DNA from: a virus
Strand: one strand, 5' to 3'
IMG/VR virus record: IMGVR_UViG_3300036820_000002
Location: 66,269 to 130,268 of that record
DNA length: 64,000 bases
Shown one piece after another: positions 40,771 to 61,275 of this stretch; position 1 is the stretch's first letter, and each line of letters opens with the position of its first letter. The notes under the pieces were generated by a model. The model was not told the origin of the DNA, did no database searches, and worked only from the letters and a program-made list of their open reading frames with translations. The position numbers and the translations under genes were made by a program.

Positions 40771-40772
40771 CA

Positions 40773-44232: not shown

Positions 44233-44263
44233 TCCGGATCAGGAAAAGAAAAGGAATCATCGC

Positions 44264-44899: not shown

Positions 44900-44996
44900 C
44901 CGCCCTCGCGCTGAGAAGCACAGGTCACCACCCGGGCGGGGTGCGAGCACCAGGGCAGCGATGACCCTGGTGCTCTTCCCGCAGAGAGGAGCATGC

Positions 44997-45500: not shown

Positions 45501-45518
45501 AAAAGAAAGGAGATAGTA

Positions 45519-45938: not shown

Positions 45939-45969
45939 AGTACGCTACAATGCGCTGGAAGGAGGTATC

Positions 45970-46311: not shown

Positions 46312-46597
46312 CGCAGTGCCCTGACTGCCCGCCGGGCGCCCACGCGCAGTACGTCCGCGACCTGCTGGCCGACCGGGAGGAGGATGCCCGGATCACCGCC
46401 GCCCGGCTGGATGAGCTCCAGGACGCCCTCATCGACACCCTTCTCAATGAGGATCTCCCGGTGGTCTGCGATAACGGCTGCCCGCTGGGAATGCTCGGCA
46501 TGCACAAGTTCTCCTGCCTCAGCGAACAGCTGGTCATCAGCATGCGGGCCACATAGAGAAAAAAATCCGGCAGCACCTTCTGAATGGCTGATGAGAT

Positions 46598-47350
46598 ATG
46601 GAACACGGAGAGCGCACCACCGCGATCTTCCGGAAGCTGACCGCTCACCCGGAAGGAATGTCCACCCCGGCCCTGGCCATGGCCATCGACGGCCGCCGGG
46701 ACCAGCACATGCTGTCCAGTTACGGGCAGATCCTGCGCCGTCATGAGGCATCCGGGCGGGTGAGCGGCGACCGGTGGACCCGGGACCCCCGCTGGGGGCA
46801 GCCCGCTGCCCGCATCTGGGTAATCACCCCGGCCGGCGAGGAGTGGCTGCAAGACCGGACGCTCCCCCGTCCCCTGGCGAAGAGGAAGCCGCCTCCTGAC
46901 CAGGGCCGTCATGAGCTGCTGGCTACCGCCCGCGAGCTCTACGGTCCCGGTACCCCCCGCGAGATCCGCCAGCCGCTGGCCGCCGAGCTGCGCCGGGCCG
47001 GCTGCCGGCTCCACGAGATCGCGGCCGTCTTCGACGTCAGCCCCGAGACGGTGCGGCTGGACGTGGAACGGGCCGGTATCGCCAGGGGGGACCACCAGGT
47101 GACCGTCCAGCGGGTCTTCGAGGTGAAGTGCACCAGCTGCCCGATGAAGGCACTAGCCCGGTCCGGCCGGGAAGCCGGCGCCATCCGGCGGGCTCACCTG
47201 GCCCGGCCCGATACAGCGGTCACAGCACCCGCAGTCACTGCTCCCGCCGTGGCTGTCATCCCCGAGGCCCCGCAGGACGAGCTGGCCCGGCTGCTCCGCG
47301 AGCAGTCCGGCCTGGATGCGCGCATCGCCAGGCTGCTGGGAATGACATAG
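46598..47350 (+). CDS. putative DNA-binding protein (wHTH + HTH)
   Basis: WVITPAGEEWL; LHEIAAVFDVSPETVR. Confidence 0.6.
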   Translation: MEHGERTTAIFRKLTAHPEGMSTPALAMAIDGRRDQHMLSSYGQILRRHEASGRVSGDRWTRDPRWGQPAARIWVITPAGEEWLQDRTLPRPLAKRKPPPDQGRHELLATARELYGPGTPREIRQPLAAELRRAGCRLHEIAAVFDVSPETVRLDVERAGIARGDHQVTVQRVFEVKCTSCPMKALARSGREAGAIRRAHLARPDTAVTAPAVTAPAVAVIPEAPQDELARLLREQSGLDARIARLLGMT

Positions 47351-48276
47351 AGAGAAGAAACGGATAGGACGGATATGCCGTCGGTAACCTGCTCACAATG
47401 TCCTTTCACCAGCTATAACCCGCATAATATCCGTGACGGCTACTGCGGGAACTGCCACGACTGGACCGGTGTCCCGGCCGGGGCCATCACGCCGGGGATG
47501 CAGGCTGTCATAGACATCGAGGAACGGCTGCTCTATCCTGCCTGGTACGACCGGCTGCGGTTCACCCCGGTCAGGTATCCCGGGGTCGGGTTCGTGGTCA
47601 TCGGGTCAGAGTCAGGGGTGTGCATCCGCATCTACGCCGCGAGCGGCGAGTCATCCGCCCGCTGCCAGCGGACCGCCGCCCGCTTCCATAGGATCCTGGC
47701 GAACGCCGGGTACCAGGTGGAGCACCGGCAGCTGGACCTGCTCGTCACCGGCAAGGGAGAAAAGCGCTATGCCTGAGTTCAGCGACCTCGCGAATACCGC
47801 AAAGTACGACCCTGATCACCTTGACCCCCGTGCGGTCCGCAGCGCCCTGCTGCGGGCCGTGGAGATCGAGGACGCCCTCCAGTGCCTCACCCGCTGCGGC
47901 ACGCTCAGCGTCGCGCGCAAGGGTGAGGAGACAGAGCTGTCGTTCGCTCTCCGGCTGGACAGCGAGACCGCTGACGCGCTACTGGTGGTACTGCTGGACC
48001 TCGGCGGGTTCACTCCCCTGATAGAGCGGGAAGAGTCATGAGCGGCTCGCACCGGAAGCGGGATGTACGGCGGCACCGGATAGCAGAGGAGAAAAGCAAT
48101 GGCCAGGATGCTGGCAGCGGCCCACGGGAAGAACCAGGCGGAGCGCCCTGACTGCTGCCGTGGCGATGACAAGTTCCGCGCACCTAGCGCCAAGCGCGTC
48201 CGCAAGGCTATCCAGCGGGCGCGGGAAAAGAGGGAATGGAAGGAGAAAGGCGTTGACCGGGGAAAGGAGACCGGCA

Positions 48277-48681
48277 ATGACCAGGATGGCGGAGCGCCCT
48301 AAGGAAGCTGCATGGGAATTCAAGGACACCGATCATATCGGGGATCCCACCAGGCTGTCGTGGACGTCATTCCTCAGCCGTGCTTTCGAGCTGGGATACC
48401 TTACTCCCGAGGAATACGCCCGGCGGCTGGAGATAATCGCCGGAGCAGTCACCAAGAGCGATATCGAGGAAGCTACCAGGAACCTGCCCTGCCGGCGGGA
48501 GTGGGGAATCAGCTGGAACGAGGCCAGGAAGAAGGGACTGCAGCCCCGGTGGGAGATTACCCCGCAGGCGTCCCGGCGCCGCCACCGTGACTGCGTCCGC
48601 CTGTTCGTGATAATCGCGATCATCACCGCCATCATCGAGATGACCGTCTTCATCGGGCTGATCGTCAACATCCTGGTATGA
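48277..48681 (+). CDS. DUF1707/SHOCT-like membrane protein
   Basis: LSRAFELGYLTPEEYARRL..A.T..LP plus a C-terminal TM helix. Confidence 0.65.
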   Translation: MTRMAERPKEAAWEFKDTDHIGDPTRLSWTSFLSRAFELGYLTPEEYARRLEIIAGAVTKSDIEEATRNLPCRREWGISWNEARKKGLQPRWEITPQASRRRHRDCVRLFVIIAIITAIIEMTVFIGLIVNILV

Positions 48682-48759
48682 AACATATGGAATGAAACAG
48701 TCCAGGTAAGCGTTACGCATACTGCGCGGTAACTCCCGAAAAGAAAATGAAGGAAGACC

Positions 48760-49986
48760 ATGACCACCTCCCGACAGCGCACCCGGGTCCGCCAGCCCGC
48801 CAGCCCCTCCGTCCTCGGCGGGGCCGCCATCCTCGGCGACATCCGCACCTTTACCGGCAGCATGCTCTACGCCGCCGATGAGATGCTGGACGCCCTCACC
48901 CTGGCCTGCGCGGCCACCCACACCATCGCCAGTTTCACCACCGTCCCCCGCCTGCTGGCCACCTCCGAGGAGGCGGAAAGCGGCAAGACTACCGTCCTGG
49001 ACATCATCACCATGCTGGGCAGCCACGCCTGGGAAGGGGAGAGCAGCCAGCCGGCGCTGCGAGCCGCCTTCCAGCGGCCGGAGCGGCCCGTGGTCGTCAT
49101 CGACGAGATCTCCCAGGTCTTCGGCAAGGGCGGTAACCGGGGCAACGGCACCGAGCTGGCCAAGATCCTGCTCAAGGGATACCGGTGCACCTCCACCTTC
49201 AGCCTCCAGGTCGACGGGGCCGATGATGAGATCAGCTCCTTCTGCTTCGCCGCGTTCGGCGGGCTGAAGAACGCCGTCCCGAAAGACATCCGCAGCCGCT
49301 GCATCGTGTGGAACATGCACCCGGCCCCGGAGAACATCCGGCTCCGCGACACTCTCGACGAGGACACCCTCGCGCTGGCGGAGATCCAGCGGACCCGGCT
49401 GCATCAGTGGGCCCGCACCCACGAGTCCGAGATCAAGGATGCCTTCCGCAACATGCGGGCGCCGCACCGCAAGTTCCGCTCCCGCCGCCGCCAGATCTGG
49501 GGCGCCCTGTTCGCCGTGGCCCAGGTCGCGGGCGGCGCCTGGCCGCAGAAGTGCCTGGCTGCCTTCAAGATGATGGGGCTGGACGCCTCCGACGCGGTCG
49601 TGCTGAGCGCCGAGCAGCGGGTCATCCGGGACGCGGCAGCCTGCTTCGAGCGGTCCGGTGCCGGGCAGATGCTGGGCGCCGACCTCCGCGAGCAGCTGCT
49701 GGAACTCCCTGACGCGAAGCTGTACCGGGCGCTGTCGGAGAACGGGTTCGCCCAGCTGATGTCAGCGGCGCTGGGGTCCAACCAGGCCATGACCGTCGGG
49801 AACCGGCGGGCCAGGGGATGGCACGCAGCCCGCGTGCTCACCCTCTGGGATGAGCTGGAGGAGCAGCTGGAGGCCGTCCAGGCACCCGGCGGCGACGACA
49901 ACCCCTACGAGGGCTTCTTCGACGTGGAGTACATCACGGAAGTCACGCATGTCACAGCGCATCAGAATGGAACGATAGCAGCATGA
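48760..49986 (+). CDS. P-loop NTPase / DUF3631-like replication-associated protein
   Basis: PRLL..SE.ESGKTT, VVIDE, ILLKGY, IRSRCI, W..L.AVA..AGG.WP. Confidence 0.75.
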   Translation: MTTSRQRTRVRQPASPSVLGGAAILGDIRTFTGSMLYAADEMLDALTLACAATHTIASFTTVPRLLATSEEAESGKTTVLDIITMLGSHAWEGESSQPALRAAFQRPERPVVVIDEISQVFGKGGNRGNGTELAKILLKGYRCTSTFSLQVDGADDEISSFCFAAFGGLKNAVPKDIRSRCIVWNMHPAPENIRLRDTLDEDTLALAEIQRTRLHQWARTHESEIKDAFRNMRAPHRKFRSRRRQIWGALFAVAQVAGGAWPQKCLAAFKMMGLDASDAVVLSAEQRVIRDAAACFERSGAGQMLGADLREQLLELPDAKLYRALSENGFAQLMSAALGSNQAMTVGNRRARGWHAARVLTLWDELEEQLEAVQAPGGDDNPYEGFFDVEYITEVTHVTAHQNGTIAA

Positions 49987-50108
49987 ATGCACGGATATCA
50001 CGTACCGACGATCGGTTCCCAGAGAGCCAGAGGATATCACGTGTGCCGGACCACCCCGGTAGATTGTGCAATTCCGGCTCCTGCAGCAGCCGCGTGAGGT
50101 TACCATAC

Positions 50109-50172
50109 GTCAGGGACAGCAGCACCAGACGAGGCCCGTCAGCCATGCATCCCGCCTGCTGCTGTCCCTGAC
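50109..50172 (+). ncRNA. single TIGR-like guide unit
   Basis: 16-bp stem GTCAGGGACAGCAGCA-CCA-gacgaggcc-CGTCAGCCA-tgcatcccg-CC-stem. Confidence 0.75.
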
Positions 50173-50539
50173 CTGAAACGGATAGAGGATATGAGCACCG
50201 GCATTCTCCGCCATGACGGCATCTACTTCCGCCGCTGGATGTGGTGGGCGCCCTGGGGCATCACGGACCCCTGGCGGCCCCGCCTCCTGCGCGGCGGCGA
50301 TGAGTGGTGCAACGACTCGGTCGCGGCCGGGCTGCCGTTCACCGGCCTCCTGGCTATCTCCTGGCGCAGGCGGCTGCGCGCGCTCCCCTGCCGGGACTGC
50401 TGGAGGCTGACCCCGGACTGGCAGCAGGCTGACTACGCGCCCTGCGGCTGGCTCCACGACGGCCGTCTCCGCGACGATGCTCACCACCACGTAGACGGCA
50501 TCTGCGATGACGCCCGGGGATGGCTTGCAGGGGAGCGGG

Positions 50540-50992
50540 ATGGACAGTGAAGACCGCCTCTGCACTCGCTGCGAGGCTCCGCTTCCCGGCACCCGCACCC
50601 TCTACTGCTCCACGACCTGCAAGAGGGCGGTGCAGCACTGGCGCGCGGCAGTCCGCAACGGCTGGCGCCGCACCGGGCTCAGCACCCATACCCCCCGAAA
50701 GCGCCGCATGCTGCTCATCCGGCAGGACGGGCGCTGCGGCATCTGCGGCCAGCCGGTCAGCTGGAACAGCGAACTCAACTGGGACCACATCATCCCCCGC
50801 TCCCACGGCGGGATTAATGCCCTCATCAACCTGCAGCTGGTACACCCCGCGTGCAACCAGCTCAAGGCAGACCGCTGCCCGTACTGCGAAGGAAGAGATA
50901 ATGCCCCCGAGACCGGAAAAGAAGACCGTGATCACCCTGGAAGTCCAGTCCCGGGATCCCGGTGGCGGACCCTGGCGGACCTGGGTCAATGA
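50540..50992 (+). CDS. HNH endonuclease
   Basis: QDGRCGICG..WDHIIPRSHGG...NLQLVHPACNQLK. Confidence 0.88.
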   Translation: MDSEDRLCTRCEAPLPGTRTLYCSTTCKRAVQHWRAAVRNGWRRTGLSTHTPRKRRMLLIRQDGRCGICGQPVSWNSELNWDHIIPRSHGGINALINLQLVHPACNQLKADRCPYCEGRDNAPETGKEDRDHPGSPVPGSRWRTLADLGQ

Positions 50993-51478
50993 GGGCCCGG
51001 AAGGAGATTCCACCGAGCAGGAGGCGCGCTTCGACGCGCAGCTTGCCATGGGCGGCACCCCGCACCTGGAGTACCGGATCGTCCGGATCATCGCGCGGCT
51101 GACCATCGAGACCCTGCCGCTGACGGAGGCTGCCAGTGAGCCTGCGCCGGTTTGACATCGAGACGATCCCGCTGGAGAAGGACGGGGACCGGATGTACTT
51201 CTGCACCCAGCCTGAGCTCCACACGGCCATCGAGGCCCTGCTCAACGGCGAGGGCCTGATCATCTACCGCACTGACAAGGACGCAAGAGAAGGGGCTGAG
51301 TACCGGTGAAATACGTGAAAAGCTGGACCTTCCACGCCATCGGCGACAAGATCCAGGTCATCTTCGAAAACAATACCCAGCAGAAGGACATCACCATGAC
51401 GCCCGCGCAGCTGGAGCGGTTCGCCGATGAGGCGCTGAACCGGGCGCTGGCCGCCCAGGGACGGGAAGGGAGCAGGTC

Positions 51479-51817
51479 ATGATAACACGGAGGAGGCACA
51501 CGGGCACCTCCCCCGCTCAGCGCGGGGCAGCCCTCCTCGACGAGGTGCGCCCTGGCTGGCGGGAGAACCTCACCCGGCCGGTCAACGTCACCAGTATCCG
51601 GGACTGCCCGCTCGGGCAGCTTTACGGCAGCTACGGCGAAGGAATGGTGACCTTGCGAAACCGTCACCACCGGGAAGACGCCCACTTCAGTGACTCCTGC
51701 GGGTTCACCACCGACCGGTCCTGGTACAAGAGCGCAGGTGCGCTGAACCGGGAATGGGCCGGCATCATCAGCGGGCGCCGGTCACTGTGGCAACGGCTGG
51801 CCGGGCGGGCGGCATGA
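51479..51817 (+). CDS. paralog family A member 5
   Basis: RGAALLDEVRPGW..CPLGQLYGSY..CGF..LNREW. Confidence 0.72.
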   Translation: MITRRRHTGTSPAQRGAALLDEVRPGWRENLTRPVNVTSIRDCPLGQLYGSYGEGMVTLRNRHHREDAHFSDSCGFTTDRSWYKSAGALNREWAGIISGRRSLWQRLAGRAA

Positions 51818-52367
51818 CCCCGCTGGCGGCGATGGCCGCGAAGATCAGCTACAAGCCCGGCTGGCAATTCTGGATTGATGACGGCGGCCGGCGTCCCCGG
51901 CTGGTCATCAAGGCATCCGTCCTCCACTCGCGGACACTGGAGCCGATCGCTTTCGAGGTGCGGCGGCTGATCCCGGGTATCGCCCAGGGTAACGCCGCCG
52001 TCTTCGCCAGCTGGGTGAAGGATGTCGTGGAGGAAACGGAGATCCACGAGCTAAGGGAGTTCTTCCGTTATAACGGCGAGCTGGCGGATGACCCGCATGC
52101 CGTTATAAGACAGGATGAAACAGGAGGACAGCCATGACCCCCGCCGGGAAGCTGGCAGGACAAGATGGCTAGGCAGCCGCCGGTACTGGTGAACGTCACC
52201 CGGGCCCCGGGAGCGCCTTTCCAGGGCACCCTGGGATACTGGTGGTACGTTACTCCCGCCGGGTACATCAAGCGCTGGCGGCACCCGGGGCCTCAGCTGA
52301 AGCCTCTCCCCGCTGGCGGCCATAAGTATCATCGGCGCTGTAAGGCACGGAAAAGAAGGAGCAGGAC

Positions 52368-52856
52368 ATGATGAAGAGAATGCTGGCAGCCGCACTAACC
52401 CTCGGAGGGTGCCTGCTGAGCACCACCGCAGCTCAAGCCGCTTTTCCAGGGTACGTCCTGGCATCCACCGGGAGCGTGGTCCTGGCAGGTGCTCACGCGA
52501 AGCCCCTCCTCTGCCTGGCCACACCGGATATCACGAGCGCTGCCGTGACCGTGCGGCCCTGCAGTGACGTTACTGAACAGCAATGGATCCTGGTCCGGAA
52601 CTGGGGGCTGGCTGTCCCGAAAATTCACCTGGACCGTGCGCATCTCGGCATCTGGTACGGGCGCATCATGCTGCTGCCGGGACGCATCGGGGCGGTGTCC
52701 TTCACCCAATACCACGGTAATCAGTGGCTGATTAAGCTCGGCGGCCTGTGCCTGAGCGTTCCTCCGGCCACCAGGTCAGTACTCTGGGAGCGCTGCGGAA
52801 TCCCTGGCGCGAAGCAAATCTGGATAATACGGCCCTGGGAGCTGGTAAAGCTGTGA
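52368..52856 (+). CDS. secreted ricin-B/beta-trefoil-like protein
   Basis: signal peptide; CL..V.VRPC...QQW, GLCL...C....KQIW. Confidence 0.55.
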   Translation: MMKRMLAAALTLGGCLLSTTAAQAAFPGYVLASTGSVVLAGAHAKPLLCLATPDITSAAVTVRPCSDVTEQQWILVRNWGLAVPKIHLDRAHLGIWYGRIMLLPGRIGAVSFTQYHGNQWLIKLGGLCLSVPPATRSVLWERCGIPGAKQIWIIRPWELVKL

Positions 52857-53390
52857 GCGAGTCCGTGAAGCGGCGGCTGCGTGCCGTCAGCGACCAGGAC
52901 AAGGAACAGGTCATCATGCAGCTGCTGACCATCTGGCAGGAGTATCCCTCCCTGCGGCTCGGGCAGCTGATCGCGAACGCCTTCCCGCCGGACATCAGCG
53001 AGCCCCTTGCTTACATCGAGGACTCCGTCCTGATCGCGGGGCTGCAGAGGGTCTACCCGAGGAAGCGGGATTACCCGGAGGGAGCGGAGTAACCGTGGAT
53101 TACCTGGTGACCACCGAGGATGAAAGCGCCGGGCCGCTGGTATTCTCTACCGACGAGGAGCTGGCTGAGGTGCTGCAGAACTACGTGGAGCAGTATCTCC
53201 AGCCGGGATGGACAGGACCCGCGATCACCGGGATCTGGGCTACCGGGGACTCTGGTATGCGCACCGAGCTGGAGCTCGCCGAGATTACCAGGATTCCCGA
53301 GATCGAGCAGATCGAGGTGATCTATGCTTTGCGCAGCAAGGGCAGTATGCTCTGCGAGTATTTCTGGTTCTCCGTGTGGGTGAACCGGTA

Positions 53391-53641
53391 GGATGTACCC
53401 GGCCGGACAATAGCAACACTATGCCCATTGTTGCGGCCCCGGCCGGGTATCCAGTAAAGGAAAAGATATGAGACAGCTGTTCGTCTGGACCGGGCAGGAT
53501 TAAGCTGACCTCCCCGGCTGGCCAAGGAGGCGTCATCACCCCGCACACTCTCGCCGACCGGGGTCGGTCCTGCTGAGCTAACTGCCGGGCCGGCCAAAGC
53601 GGATACGCCGCCCAGGTCATGATCGCCGGCCCGGGCAGTTA
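53391..53641 (+). ncRNA. TIGR-like mini-array, 3 stem-loop units
   Basis: units at 53391, 53507 and 53579; e.g. CCA-aagcggata-CGCCGCCCA-ggtcatgat-CG. Confidence 0.75.
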
Positions 53642-53698
53642 CCTGAAAAGACCCCGGGACAGCACCAAGGCTGTCCCGGATCCTGAAAGGAATGATAA

Positions 53699-54436
53699 GT
53701 GACTGCACCAGAACGCACTGAGACCGGGGGCCCGTCGAGGACCCCGCGCAGTGAGATCACCGCCGTCGTCTCAGCGAACCGCACGAAAGAGCCGGTGGCC
53801 CTGCTGGACCTGTCCACCTCGATGGACTGGGAAGCAGAACAGGGCGGACCGGAATGGGACGGCACCAGCGGGGGCAGGCGCGGCCTGGTCATCGCGGCGC
53901 TCCACGGACTGGTCGCCTCTCTTGAAAACGAGGACAGCGAGGCCGCTGGCGAGCAGGCCGGCGGCAGTGACGACCGGGGGGGCCTGATGGCCCACGGCTT
54001 CGCCAGCGGCCACGTGGAGATCGGTGACCTGAACTCCTCCAACCTGGAGCGGCGGCTGAGTGCCATCCCGTGGGGCGGCACCACCCATATCATGCCTGCG
54101 TGGAAGGCGGCGCTAGCGGACTACGACGAGGAGTTCGGCGACCGCGAGCCTGGTGAGCAGCCGGTAATGCTGGTGCTGGTCATTACCGACGGGGAGGCCG
54201 ACGACTGGGCCGAGTTCGGGCCGGTGCTGGAGACCGCGAACGCCCGCCGCGTCTTCACGGTAGCCGTCGTCGGGCACAGCGACCACCACGATGCCACCGT
54301 CCGCGCCTACCAGCAGGCGGCAGCGCGGAACACCGCGCAGGACGCGTTCGGCAAGACCCACGTCCATGTCGTCAGCTTCGACTCGGTGACGGACCCGGCG
54401 GAGATCGCCGAGGACCTGATCACCTTGATGGGATAA
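53699..54436 (+). CDS. von Willebrand factor A domain protein
   Basis: MIDAS DLSTS, GGTT, LVITDGEADD. Confidence 0.85.
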   Translation: MTAPERTETGGPSRTPRSEITAVVSANRTKEPVALLDLSTSMDWEAEQGGPEWDGTSGGRRGLVIAALHGLVASLENEDSEAAGEQAGGSDDRGGLMAHGFASGHVEIGDLNSSNLERRLSAIPWGGTTHIMPAWKAALADYDEEFGDREPGEQPVMLVLVITDGEADDWAEFGPVLETANARRVFTVAVVGHSDHHDATVRAYQQAAARNTAQDAFGKTHVHVVSFDSVTDPAEIAEDLITLMG

Positions 54437-54439
54437 CAG

Positions 54440-54889
54440 GTGAAGCTGACCAGGACGCAAGCCCAGAGCATGCTCCGAGGCGACGGGACCGTGACGGGCC
54501 TGTCTCTCGAAGCCGACCGGCAGACCGGCTCCGGTCGGTGGGAGAGCATCCACCAGTTGGTGCTCCGGGACAGCCAGGAGCATTACTGGGCGGCCCGCTA
54601 CACCCGGGGCCTCACCGAGTACCAGGACCAGGAGCCGTTCGAGGGCCAGGAAGAGGTGGAGTTCGCCCGGGTGCAGAAGGTACCCGCAGCAGGCTTCGAC
54701 TACACCCCGGAACCCGACGGCAAGGACTGCCGGGTGAACCAGCTGATGACCCTGTCAGCAGCTAAACTCGCCGCCGAGATCAGCCGGGTGCAGGGGCTGC
54801 TGGAGTCCGGGACGCCGTCGCCGGACTACCAGGCCTTCCTGGTCCACGACCTGGCCGACCTGACGCACCTGCTGATAACGGGGAGGTAG
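54440..54889 (+). CDS. phage hypothetical protein
   Basis: GRWES...YTRGLTEYQD..PF motif. Confidence 0.6.
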   Translation: MKLTRTQAQSMLRGDGTVTGLSLEADRQTGSGRWESIHQLVLRDSQEHYWAARYTRGLTEYQDQEPFEGQEEVEFARVQKVPAAGFDYTPEPDGKDCRVNQLMTLSAAKLAAEISRVQGLLESGTPSPDYQAFLVHDLADLTHLLITGR

Positions 54890-54930
54890 ATGATACTCCC
54901 GGCTAGCCACGCCTGCCAGCCGGGCCTGAC

Positions 54931-55250
54931 TGCCCCGTCACCGGAGAGGTCACGGTACCCAAAAGGATGTCGTGGCGGGGCACCGTCTCTCCCGGGCAGC
55001 CGCCTGGCCGGCCATCCACGGTCCCGCACTCCCAGTGACGGCTCACCAGCCAGGTACAGCCCGCCTCCCGGCGGCCAAATGGATCGCGTCGTCCACGATG
55101 AGCTCGCCGCCGGGAGGCGTGACCAGCCCCCCTTATTCCCGCAGGCCATCTCGTTTCCGGCCCCCATGAGGAGCTTGCCTGCGGGATCCACGGATCCCCC
55201 CTTGCGGTCAAGCTACGCTCACTGCCCATAGGTGCGCCGCCGCAAGGGGG
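54931..55250 (+). ncRNA. TIGR-like array, 4 clear + 1 degenerate stem-loop units
   Basis: units at 54931, 55062, 55137 and 55197; e.g. CCA-aatggatcg-CGTCGTCCA-cgatgagct-CG in a 13-bp stem. Confidence 0.85.
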
Positions 55251-55802
55251 TCAGTCCTCGCCGACGACCTCGGCATCCACGATGTCGGGGTTGCCCTCCA
55301 GCATCCTGGTCAGCTCCGCGTTCCTGTTGATCAGGTCAGCCACGTAGGCCTGCCATTCCAGCATCTCCCTGGTCTCATCCACCACCTTGGGCTTGCGGAT
55401 GTGCAGCCCGTAGAGGGCGCTCACCTCATGGATCACCGAGGTCACCGCCTTCGCCGCCTCGATGGTGACGGTGTCATCCAGCACCGGCCGGGAGAAGTCG
55501 GGGCGGCCGTTAGCATCGAGCTCGTAGACGGGCTTGCCGCTGGGGGAGACGCGGACCTGGCGCGGCTGGGTCATCAGGAACAGCAGCTTCTCATCAAGCA
55601 CGTATTCGAGCTTGGCCGCCATCTGCTCGCGCTTCTCGTCGTCAGGGATGGAGTCGCGCTGAGCGTGGTTGATCTGGCTGACCCGGGCAACGGTGATGCC
55701 GTAGGTGTCGGCGATGTCGGCGAGCCGGTCACCGCGCGCGATCCGGGCGGTGATCTCCAGGTCCCTGCGGATCAGGGAGATATCTCTCGAACGTCCGCCC
55801 AC
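55251..55802 (-). CDS. HTH protein, possibly terminase small subunit-like
   Basis: N-terminal HTH LADIADTYGITVARVSQI; SGKPVY..PVLDD..LYGL..P. Confidence 0.6.
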   Translation of the reverse strand: MGGRSRDISLIRRDLEITARIARGDRLADIADTYGITVARVSQINHAQRDSIPDDEKREQMAAKLEYVLDEKLLFLMTQPRQVRVSPSGKPVYELDANGRPDFSRPVLDDTVTIEAAKAVTSVIHEVSALYGLHIRKPKVVDETREMLEWQAYVADLINRNAELTRMLEGNPDIVDAEVVGED

Positions 55803-55914
55803 ACACTCCTAGAACATTTAGCCGGAATAAGCCACCTAAAGGCTATCACGGGGAAAACTGATGATCATCATGCGCCAGCGCGCCGCGTGTGTCAGGATTA
55901 ATCCGGATCACCCC

Positions 55915-55943
55915 TTGACGGGGTACGAACCATGGGGTACGTT
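55915..55943 (+). promoter_or_regulatory. putative promoter of the TIGR-Tas-like operon
   Basis: TTGACG-N17-TACGTT; overlaps a GGGGTACG direct repeat. Confidence 0.6.
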
Positions 55944-55986
55944 TCAGTCCATACGCGAAGAGAATGCTCCGCCGGAAGGGAACCCG

Positions 55987-56502
55987 ATGACCGCCAGCAC
56001 TGACACCGGAGCTGACACTGAGGTGTTCAGCCTCAATCACCTGCTCCGCGAGGTATGGGATGAGCTCGGCGGCGCCGACTACCACATCCTGGCCCACGAG
56101 GTGCTGCACCGGCTCGACCCTGCGCACTACGAGGCCGCCCTCGGGCAGGCCCTGGCCGTCTACACCTCCCGGTTCGTGGGCAGCAAGCGGATGCGCACCC
56201 CGCACCAGGCAGGCCAGCAGAACTCGGGGCGCTCGGCCAAGGTACGGGGCATCCGGACCGCCTCCGCGCAGCTGCGCACCATCTGGTACGCCACCCCCGA
56301 TGGCCAGAAGGCGCTCGGCGACTGCACCCTCTCCGACGTCTTCTACATCGTCGGCGGGCTGGAGCGGCAGGCCCGCCAGCACATGGACAAGGCACGGTGG
56401 CTGCGCGGCCTCGCGGAGGCGATGACCACCCACCCGGTCCGCCGCGTGCAGGACCTCCCCGCCGGTATCATCAGCGGCTTCTTCACCGGGGCCGAGCAGT
56501 GA
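55987..56502 (+). CDS. hypothetical protein upstream of the guide array
   Basis: 171 aa with purine-rich RBS; KALGDCT..D..V.DLP motifs. Confidence 0.7.
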   Translation: MTASTDTGADTEVFSLNHLLREVWDELGGADYHILAHEVLHRLDPAHYEAALGQALAVYTSRFVGSKRMRTPHQAGQQNSGRSAKVRGIRTASAQLRTIWYATPDGQKALGDCTLSDVFYIVGGLERQARQHMDKARWLRGLAEAMTTHPVRRVQDLPAGIISGFFTGAEQ

Positions 56503-56527
56503 CCGCCCGGCCGGGCGGGGCATTCAT

Positions 56528-57427
56528 CCTGCGGGCCAGCGCCTGTTCGCCACTCATCCCGCCTGCGCCCGCAGGCTCCGCTGTTCCCGGCGGCCAGGCT
56601 GTTCCCGGCGGCCAGAGGTGCCACGGCGCTCATGATAGCACCGTCGCCGGGGCTCCCGTCCTGCAGGCCACTGCCTGTCCGCCACTCATCCCCGGCGCGC
56701 TTGCAGGGCTCATCATTCCCGGCAGCCAGATGCCATCCGGCACCCATGCTCCGCCCGCTGCCGGGGGACTCTTCCCGCTTGCGGGGATCTCCTCTTCCGG
56801 TGGCCAGCGCCCGCGCGTCAGCCGTGCCTCCTCCGCCACCGGAAGCCCCATCATCTCGCAGGTCATCTGCCTCACGTCAGCCAGGCGTTCCTCGCCTGCG
56901 GGAACCTTCCGCCCTCGCAGCCAGTCTGCCGCTGAGGTCCTCCCCCGCCCGCAGGCCGATCATTACTCGCCGCCCATCAGTGAGCCGCCTGCGGGCCTTC
57001 ATCCAGACCGCAGCCATCCCCCGGCCGCCGCTCATATAGCCGTCGCTGCGGTTCCCTCACCCCCGCAGGCCGATCCTGACGCGTTCTCCATCCGTGTCGC
57101 CGGCCGGGACCACGCCTTCCCGCAGGTCATGCACTCGTGGCTGCCATCAGGAGCTCTGCTCCCCATTTGCGGCTCGCAGCTGCAGGCCGTCATCCCGGCG
57201 GCCACTGACGTGGCCGCCGTTCATCCAGCCAGTGCTGCCGGGGACCGCCGGCCATCACGCTCCCGTCTCCCGAGATGGCTGCGCCGGAAAGGGAAAAAAG
57301 GAACTACCATGATCACCGCCGAGACTCTCCCCGGGACCCAGCAACCTGGCGTCACCCATAACTATGCCGGTCCCGGGGAGCCGGCAGCCAGTCCTAGCGC
57401 GCCTTCCATGACAGCCCCGCTGCTGGC
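56528..57427 (+). ncRNA. main TIGR-like stem-loop array (about 12 clear + 3 degenerate units)
   Basis: units at 56528, 56604, 56660, 56718, 56794, 56855, 56947, 57007, 57194, 57248, 57327 and 57381, with stem-CCA-N9-CG(N5)CA-N9-CG-stem geometry and minor box variants. Confidence 0.88.
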
Positions 57428-58706
57428 CAACCCCGCCCTCGCGCTGGCCGCTGACGTGGTCTCTGACCTAGAGAAGGTCAGGATCGCCAACCAGAACCGG
57501 CTGCGCCAGATGATCCGCTCCGTTGAGGACTCCGACGGGGAGGAACGCGGCCTCGGGCTGCTGCCCCCCGGCTTCAGCAAGGACAGCAGGACCCTGGTCG
57601 ATGACATCCAGGACGCGGCGATCGCGATCACGGCCGCCGCTGACAGCCTGCGCCAGCGGCCCCGCTGCCCCGAGGGGTGGGTCCCTGACGTGTGGAACCT
57701 CACCCTGATCATCGTGATGATGGTAACGGCGGAGAAGGACGCGATCCGCAACCTGGAGCGGATCATGAAGCAGCACCCGCTCGGGCCCTGGGCCGCGCAG
57801 CAGAAGGGCGTCGGGAACAAGCAGCTGGCCCGGCTGCTGGCCGCGACCGGCGACCCCTACATCCGGCCCGAGATCACCCTCGCCGACGGCACCGTGGACC
57901 CCTCCCGCCCCCGGCGCGGCCCCGCCGAGCTGTGGGCCTACTGCGGCTACCACGTGCTGACTGCCGTCGTCGGCGGCACCGAGGTAGGCGTGGCCCCCCG
58001 CCGCAAGCGCGGCGAGCACGCCAACTGGTCCGCCGACGCGAAGATGCGCGCCTACCTGGTGGCAGAATCCTGCATCAAGCAGAAGGGCACCCCTTACCGG
58101 GATCTCTACGATATGACCAGGATCAAGCACGCAGACGCGCTGCACAGGGCGGAGTGCCTGCGCTGCGGGCCCAAGGGGAGCCCGGCCCAGCCGGGAAGCC
58201 CCCTCTCCGACGGTCACAAGCACGCACGCGGGCTCCGCGCCGTGGCCAAGGAGGTGCTGAAGGAACTGTGGCGCGAAGCACGCCGCCTGCACCACGGCGG
58301 CACCGACCCTGACGGCCCCCGGGATTCCCTGCCGCCCCTTCTTCCCGCATCATCCATGGCACGGTCGGCGGCAGGGAACGGCCCGGCCAAGCAGGTTACG
58401 TCCCCCACTGGGTCCCCGCCGGCCAGAGATACCACCTCACCCACGATCACCTCGCCGACCATAAAGGTCACCTCACCCATGATTACTTCGTCGGCCAGAG
58501 ACACCCCGTCACCCATGAATCCTCCGCCGGGCCTGCCGGACTTCCTCGCCGACCTGGACACCTTCCTCGGCAGCCTGCCTCCTCTCTCCGCCGGAGACGA
58601 CCGCAGCCATGTATCCTCCGTCCCCCAGAATGAAGGCGCTGCGGATGACCCCTCCCCCGGACATGGCGACACCGGTACCCCTATGGCTGGCCCCGGGGGA
58701 GAATGA
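57309..58706 (+). CDS. IS110/Nop-domain RNA-binding protein with no nuclease domain (TasA-like)
   Basis: coiled coil (DLEKVRIANQNRL), KGVG..LARLL, LWAYCG, APRRKRG, W...KMR.YL, YD..R, H..G.R..KE.LKELW; no DEDD RuvC or HNH; alternative start at 57408. Confidence 0.8.
   Translation: MITAETLPGTQQPGVTHNYAGPGEPAASPSAPSMTAPLLANPALALAADVVSDLEKVRIANQNRLRQMIRSVEDSDGEERGLGLLPPGFSKDSRTLVDDIQDAAIAITAAADSLRQRPRCPEGWVPDVWNLTLIIVMMVTAEKDAIRNLERIMKQHPLGPWAAQQKGVGNKQLARLLAATGDPYIRPEITLADGTVDPSRPRRGPAELWAYCGYHVLTAVVGGTEVGVAPRRKRGEHANWSADAKMRAYLVAESCIKQKGTPYRDLYDMTRIKHADALHRAECLRCGPKGSPAQPGSPLSDGHKHARGLRAVAKEVLKELWREARRLHHGGTDPDGPRDSLPPLLPASSMARSAAGNGPAKQVTSPTGSPPARDTTSPTITSPTIKVTSPMITSSARDTPSPMNPPPGLPDFLADLDTFLGSLPPLSAGDDRSHVSSVPQNEGAADDPSPGHGDTGTPMAGPGGE
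58383..58531 (+). repeat. 4 tandem TIGR-like units with exact 36-nt period
   Basis: CCA at 58387, 58423, 58459 and 58495; loops CGTCCCCCA/CCTCACCCA/CCTCACCCA/CGTCACCCA; variable 9-mers. Confidence 0.88.
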
Positions 58707-58767
58707 CCAGGTCCCCGCAGGTTCAGGGAGATGATGCCACCCAAACTCAGTCCGCCTGCGGGGACCT
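58601..58767 (+). ncRNA. 3 further TIGR-like stem-loop units
   Basis: units at 58601, 58652 and 58709; e.g. CCA-tgtatcctc-CGTCCCCCA-gaatgaagg-CG. Confidence 0.8.
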
Positions 58768-58823
58768 CTACGCGTAAGGGAAATGCCCCCAGCGGGGGAA
58801 ACCGGATTGAAGAGGAGAAAACC

Positions 58824-59051
58824 GTGAGCTGCCCGATGTGCCCGCACTGCACGGGCGCCCCCGAGAACCTGCTGTCCGCCGGGGATGTCGCCACCTTGTT
58901 CCGGGTGGACCCCAAGACGGTCACCCGGTGGGCGAATGAGGGGTGGCTGGCCTGCACTCGCACCCTCGGCGGCCACCGCCGCTACTCCCGTGACGAGGTG
59001 GACGCGATCATCGCCACCGGGAGGCGGCCCGGCCGCCGGGACGCGGCGTGA
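58824..59051 (+). CDS. bldC: BldC-family MerR-like/excisionase DNA-binding protein
   Basis: LLSAGDVATLFRVDPKTVTRWA..G.L...RTLGGHRRY closely follows the BldC signature. Confidence 0.85.
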   Translation: MSCPMCPHCTGAPENLLSAGDVATLFRVDPKTVTRWANEGWLACTRTLGGHRRYSRDEVDAIIATGRRPGRRDAA

Positions 59052-59341
59052 GCGTGCGGTCCGCCGGGACGGCCGTGAGCAGGCGGGCCGGGCTCAACCT
59101 GCGTGCCGAGCGGCTCGCGGCGGGGCTGCGCCCGGACCAGCTGTCCGCGATGATCACCCTGTCCGGGAGCCGCGTCTCCGCCAAGCTGATCGAGCTGATC
59201 GAGCACGGCATCCCGGACCGCAGGCGGGGACGGCGGGTCAGGGTCATGTCCGTCGACGAGGCGTGGATCTTCGCCGGGGTGCTCGGCATCCCGGTCACCC
59301 GGCTGCTGGAGGAAAGGAGCGATGATGGTCAGGATTCTTGA
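59048..59341 (+). CDS. XRE-type HTH protein
   Basis: LRAERLAAGL..DQL..IELIEHG..SVDE..FA.VLGI. Confidence 0.7.
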   Translation: MSVRSAGTAVSRRAGLNLRAERLAAGLRPDQLSAMITLSGSRVSAKLIELIEHGIPDRRRGRRVRVMSVDEAWIFAGVLGIPVTRLLEERSDDGQDS

Positions 59342-59557
59342 CGGGGAGCTGCCCCCGGTGCAGGTGCCGGGGGTCCCGCTGCCGCTGTACGTCGGCATGA
59401 GCCTGCAGGGACCCTGCGTCTTGGCCGACGGCGAGAAGGCAGCCAGGTGGCTGCTGCAGGACCCGCATGCCCGGCGGCTGTGGATCCTGCCCGGACCCGC
59501 CACCGAGCTGACCATCATGCCGGCGATCGCGGCCCGGCTGATCCCGAAGGAGTCCTG

Positions 59558-60025
59558 ATGGGCAACCACTCCGATACCCTGGCCCGCAGCTCGTTCGCGC
59601 TGTCCTCAGCGCCGGGCAGGCATGCGGTAATAAAACCGCCCCGGCTCCCGCACAAGGGGAAGCTGCCGCGCTGGTGCCCGACCTGGAAGCACGCCGCTGC
59701 CGGGTACATCGCCACCGCCGGGATCACGCTGGCCATCCTGGCCGGGACCGCCGGGGGATCCAGCGCGTCCGTGCCGCCGCCGGCCCGCCACCCGGGAATC
59801 ATGGCTCCGGCGTCAGCCCCGGCTAGCACTGCTCCCGCTCCCTCCTCCTCTCCGGCCCCGCCGGTTCCCGCCGTGACCCGCTACACGGCGCGGCCCGGGG
59901 ACACCCTGTGGGGGATCGCGGTCCGCCAGTGCGGCACCGCCGCTGACGTCAGCACGCTGGCCCGCGCTAACAAGATCAGCGGCGGCCAGCTCAGGATCGG
60001 GGAGAGCATTGTCATCACCTGCTAA
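59558..60025 (+). CDS. membrane-anchored LysM protein
   Basis: TM helix, Pro/Ala linker, YTARPGDTLWGIA..LARAN..LRIGE. Confidence 0.8.
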   Translation: MGNHSDTLARSSFALSSAPGRHAVIKPPRLPHKGKLPRWCPTWKHAAAGYIATAGITLAILAGTAGGSSASVPPPARHPGIMAPASAPASTAPAPSSSPAPPVPAVTRYTARPGDTLWGIAVRQCGTAADVSTLARANKISGGQLRIGESIVITC

Positions 60026-60489
60026 CAGCCAGGCGGAGCAGCTCGCCTTCCACCTGACCGGCGTGCACCGGGACCCCTTCGCCATCTGCGGCAGTTTCGA
60101 GCGCAACCTGCGCCAGCATGAAGCTGACCACGCCAGCCTGGCCGCCGGCGGCACCGGCATCGTGCTGCACATCGAGGCGACCTGGTCATTCGATGAGGAC
60201 TGGGTAGAAAGAGTACTGGAGAAAATGGAGGCATCGCGGTGAGCGAGATAGATGACGCCACGGGAATCGACATCCCGGACACCGTCGCGGAGTACGCGCG
60301 GACCTCAGCAGCCAAGCGCGCCTACCTGTTCTACGTCACCTACCTGAGCCGGGAGGACATATCGCACCCCTCCTGGGAGCAGCTCAGCGAGCCTTCCCGT
60401 GACCTGTGGCGGGAGCTGACCGGGGCTGTCGACGACGGCTTCTCTGACGGGCTGGTGCGCGGGCTGCGGTTGCATGAGACGGGGTCGCT

Positions 60490-61275
60490 GTGAGCCTGGT
60501 TCACAAGCCGTGGGCGCTGCCGGAGCTGGACATCTCCGGCGATGAGGGCCATCCTGACTGGACTCCCGGCGAGGAAGATGCCCTCTTCCGGAAGACGGGC
60601 CCGGAAACGGTGGAACTGCACCGCCCGCCCGGGGTCTACGCCAGCTGGCTGCAGAACATCCGGGAGAACCGGGACCGCGACGTCACCGCCTACGAGGCGG
60701 ACCCGCGCAGCCTGGCCGCCGCCTGGTCCTGGCTGGACAGCCACCCGCTGTTCTGGACGGTCGCCCCCGGGTACCCCCGCAATCACGTCCGGCTGGTCAC
60801 CGACTCCCTCGGGGTGGCGCGCGGCCTCGACCTGTTCCCGGCGGCCGTTCCCGGCGGGACCGAGATCCGCTATGAAGTCATGATCTCCCCGGACCTGCAT
60901 GACTGGGAGCTCGACGGGAGCTGCGGCAGCTGGGAGGAGGTCATCCTGGAAGCGGCCCGCAAGGTCCACCTGGCCCACGGCAACGACCGGGCCGGGATCA
61001 GCGTCCCGCCGTGGCCGCTGCCCCCCTACGGGCAGCTCTCCGTCCCGGTCCACATCACCGGGAAAGTGCAGTGGACCGGCGGCAACCTGGAGGAGATCCG
61101 GGCGTTCGCCGGCGGGTTCTTCTCCGTGACCTCCCGGAACCCGGTCATCCGGGACAGCAGGGGGGGCCTGCATGACCTTCCCCCCGGCTCCTGGGCAGTC
61201 TGCTATTCCCCCGGCGACTTCGGCGTCTTCACCGACGGCGCCCGCACCCGCTTCTTCGGAAAGGATCCCGCATGA
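60490..61275 (+). CDS. hypothetical protein
   Basis: 261-aa coupled ORF; WLDSHPLFW, HDWELD. Confidence 0.6.
   Translation: MSLVHKPWALPELDISGDEGHPDWTPGEEDALFRKTGPETVELHRPPGVYASWLQNIRENRDRDVTAYEADPRSLAAAWSWLDSHPLFWTVAPGYPRNHVRLVTDSLGVARGLDLFPAAVPGGTEIRYEVMISPDLHDWELDGSCGSWEEVILEAARKVHLAHGNDRAGISVPPWPLPPYGQLSVPVHITGKVQWTGGNLEEIRAFAGGFFSVTSRNPVIRDSRGGLHDLPPGSWAVCYSPGDFGVFTDGARTRFFGKDPA

What the first reader, a model, noticed from the sequence alone, without database searches (positions are those of the whole stretch)
57309..58706. Guide units embedded in the coding sequence of their putative protein
Seen: two units (57327-57427) lie after the RBS-backed ATG at 57309. Four tandem units with exact 36-nt period (58383-58531) and two stem-loop units lie before the stop at 58706, giving low-complexity tails (..TSPT..TSPM..). 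The same frame is open back to 56397 across the main array. Inference: dual-use sequence, where guide processing would cut the mRNA and give autoregulation. The frame-preserving 36-nt units may show a transition between stem-loop and tandem arrays.
Basis: partly seen in the sequence, partly recalled or inferred. Interest (0 to 1): 0.8.

Follow-up and report, generated by a model that had tools for sequence, protein, structure and literature searches.

The report
Guide RNAs inside their protein's gene
A soil phage carries a known kind of RNA-guided DNA-binding system (TIGR-TasA) in which the small guide-RNA units sit inside the reading frame of the protein that uses them, an arrangement already reported in a 2026 preprint.

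Summary
ORF 57309-58706 encodes a nuclease-free TasA protein. Its folded core is residues 41-330, and its closest solved relatives are TasR and TasH structures.

Both ends of the ORF are made of guide units of the form CCA-N9-CG-N4-CCA-N9-CG:
- two hairpin units follow ATG 57309;
- the 135-residue tail holds one hairpin unit, four stemless 36-nt tandem units, one more unit and a decayed one.

The unit-encoded parts are predicted disordered and lack the codon-position GC pattern of the core.

In 126 related loci the guide array is usually kept inside the tasA frame:
- no stops across the array in 52 of 63 loci, against 14 and 8 for the other frames;
- in 35 of 41 relatives the tas start codon overlaps the stop of a conserved upstream gene by 4 nt.

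The window has the same junction at GTG 56499. The ORF therefore probably starts there (735 aa) and includes the main array.

Long 3' tails are atypical (median 5 aa in 99 relatives). This one may be neutral read-through.

Autoregulation by guide processing is untested. Intragenic tigRNAs were described by Xu et al. 2026, so this is a new member of a known kind. This scan has noted TIGR-Tas loci on other DNA before.

The parts
55987..56502 (+). Conserved upstream partner gene (171 aa from ATG 55987; phrog_4604, function unknown). Its TGA stop (56500-56502) overlaps the tas-frame GTG.
   Evidence: Homolog found upstream of the array in 47 of 126 loci. AF2 pLDDT 88.2 with no fold match.
56499..58706 (+). 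Maximal tasA ORF: 735 aa with no internal stop. It starts at a GTG that overlaps the upstream gene's stop by 4 nt (GTGA).
   Evidence: The same -3 junction with an open frame to the core occurs in 35 of 41 distinct relatives.
56528..57053 (+). Main array: 8 stem-loop tigRNA units with cores at 56536, 56612, 56668, 56726, 56804, 56863, 56956 and 57014. Stems are 8-10 bp. All units are in phase 1 or 2 of the tas frame.
57054..57308 (+). Decayed units, a weak unit (core 57252-57283, 4-bp stem) and the purine-rich SD-like stretch 57286-57302.
57309..57311 (+). SD-backed ATG, 18 nt before the next stem.
57327..57380 (+). In-ORF stem-loop unit with a 12-bp stem and core 57338-57369. It encodes LPGT...AGPGE.
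57380..57427 (+). In-ORF stem-loop unit with an 8-bp stem and core 57388-57419. Its 3' arm is also codons L38-L39-A40 of the conserved core.
57429..58298 (+). TasA folded core (residues 41-330): coiled coil plus Nop-type RNA-binding domain, with no nuclease domain.
   Evidence: GC1/2/3 is 0.71/0.49/0.92.
58325..58378 (+). In-ORF stem-loop unit in the C-tail with a 12-bp stem and 2 box mismatches.
   Evidence: z -2.53.
58387..58526 (+). Four tandem units with an exact 36-nt period and 4-nt near-palindromic edges (CCGG/CCGA/TCGG). The layout is like a dual-repeat array. The first D box of units 2 and 3 is CC.
   Evidence: No stable fold (z 0.02).
58601..58644 (+). In-ORF stem-loop unit with a 6-bp stem and perfect boxes.
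58652..58701 (+). Decayed unit: a 9-bp hairpin with mutated boxes.
58704..58706 (+). TGA stop of tasA, 135 codons after the end of the core.
58709..58767 (+). Stem-loop unit just after the stop: 13-bp perfect stem, boxes TCA/TG.
   Evidence: z -4.83.

Best explanation
This is a stem-loop TIGR-TasA system. TasA is a Nop-domain, nuclease-free DNA binder guided by RNAs with two spacers. Its guide units lie inside the tasA reading frame.

Shown here:
- The protein is a Tas family member.
- The units have the defining box C, box D and double 9-nt spacer layout, with covarying stems.
- The units lie on both sides of the folded core, in the same open frame.
- One unit shares bases with conserved codons.
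- Relatives keep the frame open through their arrays, starting from a codon that overlaps the stop of a conserved upstream gene.

Inferred, about 70%: in this phage translation starts at GTG 56499, coupled to the upstream gene. It runs through the main array into the core. ATG 57309 serves as a second, internal start.

The unit-encoded peptide is a disordered by-product. Selection acts only against stop codons and on unit phase.

The 135-residue C-tail is most likely read-through into the downstream array after loss of the usual stop.

Inferred, about 30%: one transcript is both tasA mRNA and guide precursor. Cutting out a guide, or TasA binding to it, would then prevent translation of that copy. 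This would balance protein against guides.
For: Protein identity:
- phrog_4285, E 1e-78, residues 34-330.
- phmmer hits to TasR 9mty (E 6e-8) and TasH 21kl (E 0.005).
- The ten best Foldseek matches are all TIGR-Tas structures, E 2e-8 to 1e-6.
- No Pfam domain and no nuclease domain.

Units:
- Template statistics.
- Stem covariation with 0 of 500 shuffles reaching the score.
- The same 9/4/9 layout on the tas strand is the best fit in 39 of 46 viral loci.

Embedding:
- pLDDT is above 90 for residues 41-330, 48-67 for residues 1-40 and 32-48 for residues 331-465.
- GC3 is 0.92 in the core against 0.71-0.73 in the unit-encoded parts.

Family evidence:
- 63 of 101 distinct loci have an array of 3 or more units abutting the core.
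- The tas frame has no stop across the array in 52 of those 63 loci. The other two frames have none in 14 and 8. Total stops are 22, 95 and 172.
- Unit phases are 20, 181 and 151 of 352 units.
- A tas-frame ATG or GTG lies 12-28 nt before the first stem in 45 of 61 loci, and at exactly 16 nt in 19. The other frames give 12 and 11.
- The last unit's hairpin reaches codon 38 in 42 of 101 loci. Pairwise identity is 0.51-0.53 for its stems and 0.27 for its spacers.
- The start codon overlaps the upstream gene's stop by 4 nt in 35 of 41 relatives and in the window.

Literature: Xu et al. 2026 (sections 5 and 11 read) report intragenic stem-loop tigRNAs at the 5' end, the 3' end and internally. They recovered intragenic tigRNAs of Bifidobacterium longum TasA by small-RNA sequencing.
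Against: - In this window alone the open frames are not significant (P about 0.11 each).
- GTG 56499 has only a weak SD and lies 29 nt, not 16-18 nt, before the first stem. ATG 57309 has the only good SD.
- The source's own gene call starts at M34.
- The unit-encoded parts show no coding signature.
- The tail is atypical. Among 99 relatives the median is 5 aa, and 68 have 15 aa or fewer.
- Tandem units 2 and 3 and unit 58336 have mutated boxes, so some in-ORF units may be dead.
- The CUU motif that Xu et al. place at stem bases was seen at only 6 of 26 units.
- The relatives are not all independent; some loci look like the same phage assembled twice.
- No expression, processing or translation data exist for this DNA.
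Confidence: 0.78

Rival explanations
1. Annotation artefact. The real TasA is only the core. The open frames across units are what any GC-rich sequence gives, and the units are simply flanking arrays.
For: - The chance of no stop is 0.11 for the tail and 0.11 for the array.
- GC by codon position is flat in the unit-encoded parts.
- Most relatives stop within 15 aa of the core end.
- In Mycobacterium phage Bethlehem the three units lie upstream of the SD and GTG of gp71, outside the ORF.
Against: - Unit 57388 shares bases with conserved codons 38-40. The next in-frame start (V50) would delete nearly invariant residues D41 to D49.
- There is no stop before 58704 in a sequence confirmed at depth 251.
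- Stop depletion, phase bias and the conserved 4-nt start/stop overlap across the family cannot come from base composition.
Confidence: 0.07
2. The unit-encoded tails are functional protein parts in their own right. An example would be a flexible linker carrying a short docking helix (PDFLADLDTFLGSL, residues about 410-423).
For: - AF2 draws a short helix at residues 413-419.
- The stretch 58532-58600 is not a clean unit.
- Xu et al. 2026 (section 6 read) note long disordered N-terminal regions as a feature of TasA clades.
Against: - pLDDT is 32-48 across the tail, the helix included.
- No codon-position GC signature.
- Tails are absent or short in most relatives.
- Spacer-encoded residues diverge to random-level identity of 0.27.
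Confidence: 0.08
3. The in-ORF units, at least those in the 3' tail, are dead relics of an array overrun by the ORF and no longer yield guides.
For: - Mutated boxes in units 58336, 58423 and 58459, and decayed hairpins at 58652-58701.
- The tandem block has no stable fold (z 0.02).
- The protein has no tyrosine after residue 330 (read). It therefore lacks the Tyr/His dyad that Xu et al. 2026 (section 10 read) say processes 36-nt dual-repeat guides.
Against: - Units 57338, 57388, 58387, 58495 and 58607 have perfect boxes.
- Units at matching positions in relatives keep their stems while the spacers change.
- Intragenic units of a related TasA are recovered as RNA (Xu et al. 2026, section 11 read).
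Confidence: 0.2

Closest known systems
Intragenic stem-loop tigRNAs of TIGR-TasA systems, e.g. Bifidobacterium longum TasA (Xu et al. 2026, bioRxiv 10.64898/2026.09.09.750476; sections 5, 6, 10, 11, 13 read)
   Same: - Nuclease-free TasA.
- Stem-loop units inside the tas coding sequence without breaking the frame.
- Embedded parts map to disordered protein regions.
- The same suggestion that guide maturation and Tas translation are linked.
   Different: - BlTasA's embedded units lie in the internal wedge loop. Here they are at the 5' and 3' ends, and the wedge insertion seen in many relatives is absent.
- The start-codon overlap with an upstream gene, the stop depletion and the phase bias are not in the main text that I read or searched.
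- The supplements were closed.
Stem-loop TIGR-TasA of the Peromyscus leucopus gut contig, PlTasA (Faure et al. 2025, PMC12045711, section 9 read; Guan et al. 2026 preprint, passages read)
   Same: - Solo Nop-domain protein.
[quoted passage not shown]
- Variable palindromic stems.
- Array split into sub-arrays around the gene.
   Different: - Sequence relation to PlTasA was not tested, as its sequence was not at hand.
- Here the linker between the spacer halves has a fixed length of 4 nt and is often TCAC.
- Here the units are inside the ORF.
Dual-repeat TIGR arrays (TaTasR 9mty, SpTasH 21kl, FpTasA; Faure et al. 2025)
   Same: - The four tandem units have a 36-nt period and 9-nt spacers.
- They have a loop repeat (CG-TCAC-CCA) and an edge repeat (CG-NCGR-CCA).
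- The protein core matches TasR and TasH by sequence and fold.
   Different: - Only four units, and they lie inside the ORF.
- They sit in a locus that is otherwise stem-loop.
- The protein lacks the C-terminal Tyr/His processing loop.
Mycobacterium phage Bethlehem gp71 'transposase' and its cluster-A relatives (NC_009878.1)
   Same: - About 43% identical over query residues 49-328.
- Three 9/4-5/9 stem-loop units in the 335-nt gap upstream of the gene.
   Different: - The units lie upstream of the SD and GTG, outside the ORF.
- The protein is 235 aa with no tails.
IS110-family bridge recombinases (IS621 8wt6, ISCro4 9t56) and box C/D Nop5/Nop56/58
   Same: Shared RNA-binding fold, at a distance: Foldseek E about 0.01-0.02 for IS621 and ISCro4, and 0.2-0.3 for Nop proteins.
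   Different: No RuvC/DEDD domain, no bridge RNA and no fibrillarin or L7Ae partners. It is not a member of either family.

Membership tests
TIGR-Tas (stem-loop TasA) | Tas protein with a Nop-type RNA-binding domain and coiled coil | tested here: met
   - phmmer to 9mty, E 6e-8, and to TasH, E 0.005.
- The ten best Foldseek matches are all TasR or TasH.
- Long helices at 42-69, 96-113 and 126-155.
TIGR-Tas (stem-loop TasA) | No RuvC or HNH nuclease domain (TasA type) | tested here: met
   - No Pfam hit.
- Residues before 41 are disordered and unit-encoded.
TIGR-Tas (stem-loop TasA) | Units with two 8-12-nt spacers, each between box C (CCA and variants) and box D (CG/TG) | tested here: met
   CCA-N9-CG-N4-CCA-N9-CG occurs exactly 11 times on the + strand and 0 times on the - strand. 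Shuffles gave a mean of 0.6.
TIGR-Tas (stem-loop TasA) | Variable palindromic stems of at least 5 bp flanking each unit | tested here: met
   - 20 units have stems of 6-16 bp.
- Covariation score 0.627 against 0.203 in shuffles, with 0 of 500 reaching it. Slid controls gave 0.07-0.24.
TIGR-Tas (stem-loop TasA) | Units transcribed and matured into tigRNAs bound by Tas | not testable with these tools
   Only one DNA run holds the stretch.
TIGR-Tas (stem-loop TasA) | CUU motif at the stem base (Xu et al. 2026) | tested here: inconclusive
   CTT lies within a few nt of the stem base at 6 of 26 units. The exact expected position is not given in the text I read.
TIGR-Tas (stem-loop TasA) | Absence of the C-terminal Tyr/His processing loop (a trait of stem-loop clades) | tested here: met
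   - No tyrosine in residues 330-465.
- Relatives end a median of 5 aa after the core.
Intragenic tigRNA arrangement (Xu et al. 2026) | Units inside the tas ORF without breaking the frame, mapping to disordered regions | tested here: met
Dual-repeat TIGR array | 36-nt units with conserved edge and loop repeats | tested here: met
   Met for the four units at 58387-58526 only.
Dual-repeat TIGR array | Tas protein with the Tyr/His dyad that cuts the edge repeat | tested here: not met
   No tyrosine after residue 330. The locus is therefore not filed as a dual-repeat system.
IS110 bridge-RNA recombinase | N-terminal DEDD/RuvC domain | tested here: not met
   - No such domain.
- Foldseek matches to IS621 cover only the shared C-terminal fold.

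The most novel reading that the evidence does not exclude
In this TasA clade the guide array is placed inside the tasA reading frame by design. The start codon is coupled to a conserved upstream gene and sits a fixed 16-18 nt before the first hairpin. The last hairpin is built from the first conserved codons of the protein. Every transcript must therefore be either translated into TasA or matured into guides. This would be a built-in switch that sets the protein-to-guide ratio. In this phage, 3' units ahead of the stop codon would add a non-stop-mRNA route to the same end.
Probability: 0.3. Interest if true: 0.65.

Novelty: new member of a known kind. Interest (0 to 1): 0.42.

Why it matters
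Two questions about stem-loop TIGR systems are stated as open by Xu et al. 2026: how their guides mature, and whether maturation is tied to Tas translation. This locus and its relatives give countable sequence rules that turn the idea into reporter and sequencing experiments:
- a 4-nt start/stop overlap with an upstream gene;
- a start codon 16 nt before the first stem;
- avoidance of stop codons and of one unit phase;
- a last hairpin made of conserved codons.

The locus is also an extreme case, with about 17 units or relics in one 735-codon frame. It mixes stem-loop units with 36-nt tandem units while using a protein that lacks the known 36-nt processing site.

Cultured Mycobacterium smegmatis phages carry the same protein family with upstream units, so a laboratory model exists.

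Tried and rejected
- My first reading was a mobile hairpin repeat (MITE/REP-like) invading the ORF ends (stated). I dropped it once the unit layout and the protein matched TIGR-Tas.
- Rfam gave no match at E up to 1 over 54000-61000.
- The sigma-70 promoter and terminator scan of 55200-59200 found nothing on the + strand. I make no statement about promoters.
- Self-targeting: 26 guides were searched against the phage's own 130 kb in both possible geometries. There were no hits with 0-1 mismatch, and hits with 2-4 mismatches were as frequent as in two wrong-geometry controls. I did not search other collections, because exact 18-mers are expected by chance at that scale.
- RNA evidence: no RNA holder was listed. 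One DNA run, the probable source and so not independent, holds the stretch.
- The spacer-similarity test for recent duplication of the tandem units is flawed. My shuffles destroyed the positional base preferences, for example spacer B beginning with T in 16 of 26 units. I draw no conclusion from it.
- The L024 'tandem' hit lies 2.3 kb downstream of tas and looks like chance.
- The stretch 58533-58573 looks by eye like a decayed unit, but folding gives no support (z -0.64).
- Upstream partner protein: no Pfam family was shared by more than 1 of 18 members. The best PDB profile hit was eS6 at E 0.008, not credible. The protein atlas gave no usable hit. Foldseek's best E was 2.3. VIA-align's best Z was 5.1, over one long helix. 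Its function remains unknown.
- Supplements of the papers were closed. The TIGRSafari annotations and supplementary tables of Xu et al. may already list this clade's features.
- A search for 'tigRNA' together with 'intragenic' found only Xu et al. 2026.
Full report
What is there. The window is the last 64 kb of a single 130,268-nt contig. The stretch lies in a GC-rich (about 70%), C-skewed region. ORF 57309-58706 encodes 465 residues. Its middle, residues 34-330, matches the phage family phrog_4285 'transposase' at E 1e-78. No Pfam family matches.

By sequence the protein hits the solved TIGR proteins TasR (9mty, E 6e-8, query 206-327) and TasH (21kl, E 0.005). An AlphaFold2 model built from 50 sequences is confident for residues 41-330. 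Its ten best Foldseek matches in the PDB are all TasR or TasH structures (E 2e-8 to 1e-6). IS621 and ISCro4 follow at E about 0.01-0.02, and Nop5/Nop56/58 at 0.2-0.3. There is no nuclease domain. The protein is therefore a TasA in the nomenclature of Faure et al. 2025 (PMC12045711; passages and section 9 read).

The units. A scan for hairpins with 24-40-nt loops showed a family with stems of varying sequence and a 30-nt loop carrying a conserved centre. All members are on the + strand. Written in the terms of Xu et al. 2026 (methods passage read), each unit is box C CCA, a 9-nt spacer, box D CG, a 4-nt linker (often TCAC), then CCA, a second 9-nt spacer and CG.

The exact template occurs 11 times on the + strand of the genome and never on the - strand. 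Ten first-order Markov shuffles gave a mean of 0.6 and a maximum of 3. With one or two box mismatches allowed and a stem required, I count 26 units in the window, at 40391-58723. Across 25 of them aligned without gaps, the 12 flanking positions pair in 76.3% of cells against 53.2% in shuffles. The covariation score is 0.627 against 0.203, and 0 of 500 shuffles reach it. Slid controls score 0.07-0.24. Rfam has no match.

Every element named is present.
- After ATG 57309, which is preceded by a purine-rich SD-like stretch, come two perfect-box units: 57327-57380 (12-bp stem) and 57380-57427 (8-bp stem).
- The folded core ends near residue 330 (window 58298).
- The tail then consists almost wholly of units. 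Four units follow with cores exactly 36 nt apart (58387, 58423, 58459, 58495), joined by 4-nt near-palindromic edges. A unit lies at 58601-58644 and a decayed hairpin at 58652-58701.
- The stop is at 58704-58706, and one more unit follows at 58709-58767.

RNA folding supports the hairpins, with z from -1.2 to -4.8. It shows no stable structure for the tandem block, z 0.02. A Logan contig at depth 251 from the only run that holds the stretch matches 56400-58900 with no difference. That run is a soil metagenome, probably the source and so not independent. There is no hidden stop near 58300.

Is the overlap with coding sequence real? Within this window the evidence is mixed.
- The core has the GC pattern of a high-GC gene: GC1/2/3 of 0.71/0.49/0.92.
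- The first 38 codons (0.66/0.66/0.71), the tail (0.64/0.66/0.73) and the upstream array read in the same frame (0.72/0.67/0.73) do not.
- A stop-free frame arises in 11% of dinucleotide shuffles of the tail and in 11% of shuffles of the array.
- The model gives pLDDT 48-67 for residues 1-40 and 32-48 for residues 331-465.

So the unit-encoded peptide looks like a disordered by-product. On the other hand, the 3' arm of unit 57388 (CTGCTGGC, 57420-57427) is at the same time codons L38-L39-A40, directly before the nearly invariant D41 and P42 of the family. The next in-frame start downstream, V50, would remove conserved residues. At least this unit is truly dual-use.

Relatives. I fetched 46 viral and 80 metagenome loci encoding relatives at 29-54% identity, plus short fragments up to 70%. 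Some are the same element assembled twice. I de-duplicated by 300 nt of core sequence, but the remaining loci are still not all independent.
- The 9/4/9 unit on the tas strand is the best-fitting layout in 39 of 46 viral loci.
- Of 101 distinct loci, 63 have an array of at least three units abutting the core upstream. Across that array the tas frame has no stop in 52 of 63. The other two frames have none in 14 and 8. Total stops are 22, 95 and 172 over 22.5 kb.
- Units avoid one phase of the tas frame: 20, 181 and 151 of 352 units. I read this as follows. Spacer B often begins TGA, TAG or TAA, which would be a stop in that phase (for the base counts).
- The arrays have no codon-position GC pattern either: 0.69/0.63/0.70 against 0.72/0.49/0.81 for the cores.
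- A tas-frame ATG or GTG lies 12-28 nt before the first stem in 45 of 61 loci, and at exactly 16 nt in 19. The other frames give 12 and 11, with no peak.
- In 42 of 101 loci, the window included, the last unit's hairpin reaches codon 38. Across the 41 relatives its stem arms are 51-53% identical pairwise and its spacers 27%, which is chance level. This is what one expects of a conserved scaffold carrying fast-changing guides.

The start of the gene. A homolog of the gene just upstream (55987-56502, phrog_4604) precedes the array in 47 of 126 loci. In 35 of 41 distinct relatives that have it, the first tas-frame start codon overlaps its stop codon by 4 nt (ATGA or GTGA). In those same loci the tas frame is open from there through every unit to the core.

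The window has exactly this junction: GTG 56499-56501 over TGA 56500-56502. It is followed by 735 codons without a stop, with ten units before the core. My rough estimate of the chance rate for such a junction is about 0.1. This is my own arithmetic from stop-codon usage, one frame in three and the third-position base; it is not a computed control. I therefore think it more likely than not (about 70%) that the main array at 56528-57053 is also inside the tasA ORF. That ATG has the only good SD and lies 18 nt before the next stem, which is the family geometry.

Against this reading, GTG 56499 has a weak SD and lies 29 nt before the first stem. The stretch 57054-57300 holds only decayed units. 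The database's own gene call for this contig starts at M34.

The 3' tail. Among 99 distinct relatives with a complete 3' end, the ORF ends a median of 5 residues after the core. The tail is 15 residues or fewer in 68, 30 or more in 16, and 100 or more in 3. Of 24 loci with downstream units chained to the core, 17 have at least one unit inside the ORF. This is usually one unit, and two to four units in L001, L029, L053, L055 and L118. The window, with six units and two relics in a 135-residue tail, is the most extreme case I saw. A recurrent but minority pattern, no coding signature and a chance probability of 0.11 together point to read-through after loss of the usual stop. I hold this at about even odds against a selected role.

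The tandem block. The four 36-nt units have the period, spacer length, loop repeat and edge repeat of dual-repeat TIGR arrays. They share box and linker sequences with the stem-loop units around them. Units 2 and 3 have CC in place of the first D box. Among the roughly 100 relatives only L094 has a similar array: seven units at an exact 36-nt period, upstream of its core. L027 has units 42 nt apart. Xu et al. (section 10 read) state that 36-nt guides are cut by a Tyr/His dyad in a C-terminal loop that all stem-loop clades lack. This protein has no tyrosine after residue 330. Either these units mature by another route or they are not used. Faure et al. (section 9 read) already suggested intermediates between the two array types, on the ground of conserved loop sequences. 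Here the stem side is intermediate too.

How it most likely works. Established by others: TasA-tigRNA complexes bind DNA matching both spacers and repress transcription, and intragenic units of B. longum TasA are recovered as processed RNA (Xu et al. 2026, sections 11-13 read). Shown here: the sequence rules above.

Inferred: the operon transcript is both the tasA message and the guide precursor. Ribosomes coming from the upstream gene must unwind each hairpin to reach the core. Cutting out a unit, or TasA sitting on one (the first stem begins at the edge of an initiating ribosome's footprint), would stop translation of that copy. More TasA would then mean less new TasA. For the 3' units, cutting would leave a message without a stop codon. 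None of this was testable here. Xu et al. make the general suggestion that maturation and translation may be linked.

The guides do not match the phage's own genome. Self-repression through DNA binding is therefore not supported, and the targets remain unknown.

Novelty and score. Guide units inside tas genes at the 5' end, the 3' end and internally, mapping to disordered regions, are in print as a preprint of September 2026. The locus is therefore a new member of a known kind. The following are not in the main text of that preprint as far as my word searches and section reading go (supplements closed):
- the family-wide counts;
- the coupling to a conserved upstream gene;
- the hairpin built from conserved codons;
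- the mixed array.

They sharpen an open question rather than open a new one.

This scan has noted TIGR-Tas-like loci before on other DNA: 825 notes in at least 475 genomes hold the search words. That note gave me the lead.

Noticed in passing
window 55987-56502: A 171-aa protein of unknown function (phrog_4604) is conserved directly upstream of the array and tasA in 47 of 126 loci. It is joined to the tas frame by a 4-nt stop/start overlap. AF2 gives a confident helical model (pLDDT 88) with no sequence or fold match. It is a candidate partner of stem-loop TasA, for example in guide maturation, which is still unexplained in the literature.
   Followed up: partly
L127 (Mycobacterium phage Bethlehem, NC_009878.1 record 45995-47037): The cultured cluster-A phage Bethlehem has three stem-loop units with the same box layout in the 335-nt gap upstream of gp71 'transposase', a TasA homolog. 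83 of the 90 phage records with a homolog are Mycobacterium phages. M. smegmatis phages could therefore serve as a laboratory model.
   Followed up: partly
window 56516-56729 and 56930-57096: Two pairs of longer direct repeats lie inside the main array: 82 nt at 132-nt spacing, 73% identical, and 53 nt at 114-nt spacing, 74% identical. They suggest that the array grows by duplicating blocks of units which then diverge in their spacers.
   Followed up: no
window 57327-57380 and the unit at -82 nt from the core in relatives (e.g. L047, L064, L067, L077, L085): The second-to-last unit keeps nearly the same stem (TCCCCGGCGG / CCGCCGGGGA type, peptide LPG..AGE) across relatives. It does so although it lies in the disordered region, not in conserved protein. 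I have no explanation for why this stem is conserved.
   Followed up: no
window, spacer B of the 26 units: The first three bases after the second CCA are biased: T in 16, G in 14 and A in 12 of 26 units. Box C may therefore be longer than CCA, and the effective guide shorter than 9 nt.
   Followed up: no
window 58824-59051: The next gene downstream is an HTH_17/MerR-type excisionase-like protein (Pfam E 1e-10). A homolog follows tasA in only 1 of 126 related loci, so it is not part of the system.
   Followed up: partly
L094 2039-2305: A relative with 44% identical TasA has a seven-unit array at an exact 36-nt period with 5-bp edges, about 200 nt upstream of its core. This is a dual-repeat-like array in a stem-loop clade.
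   Followed up: partly
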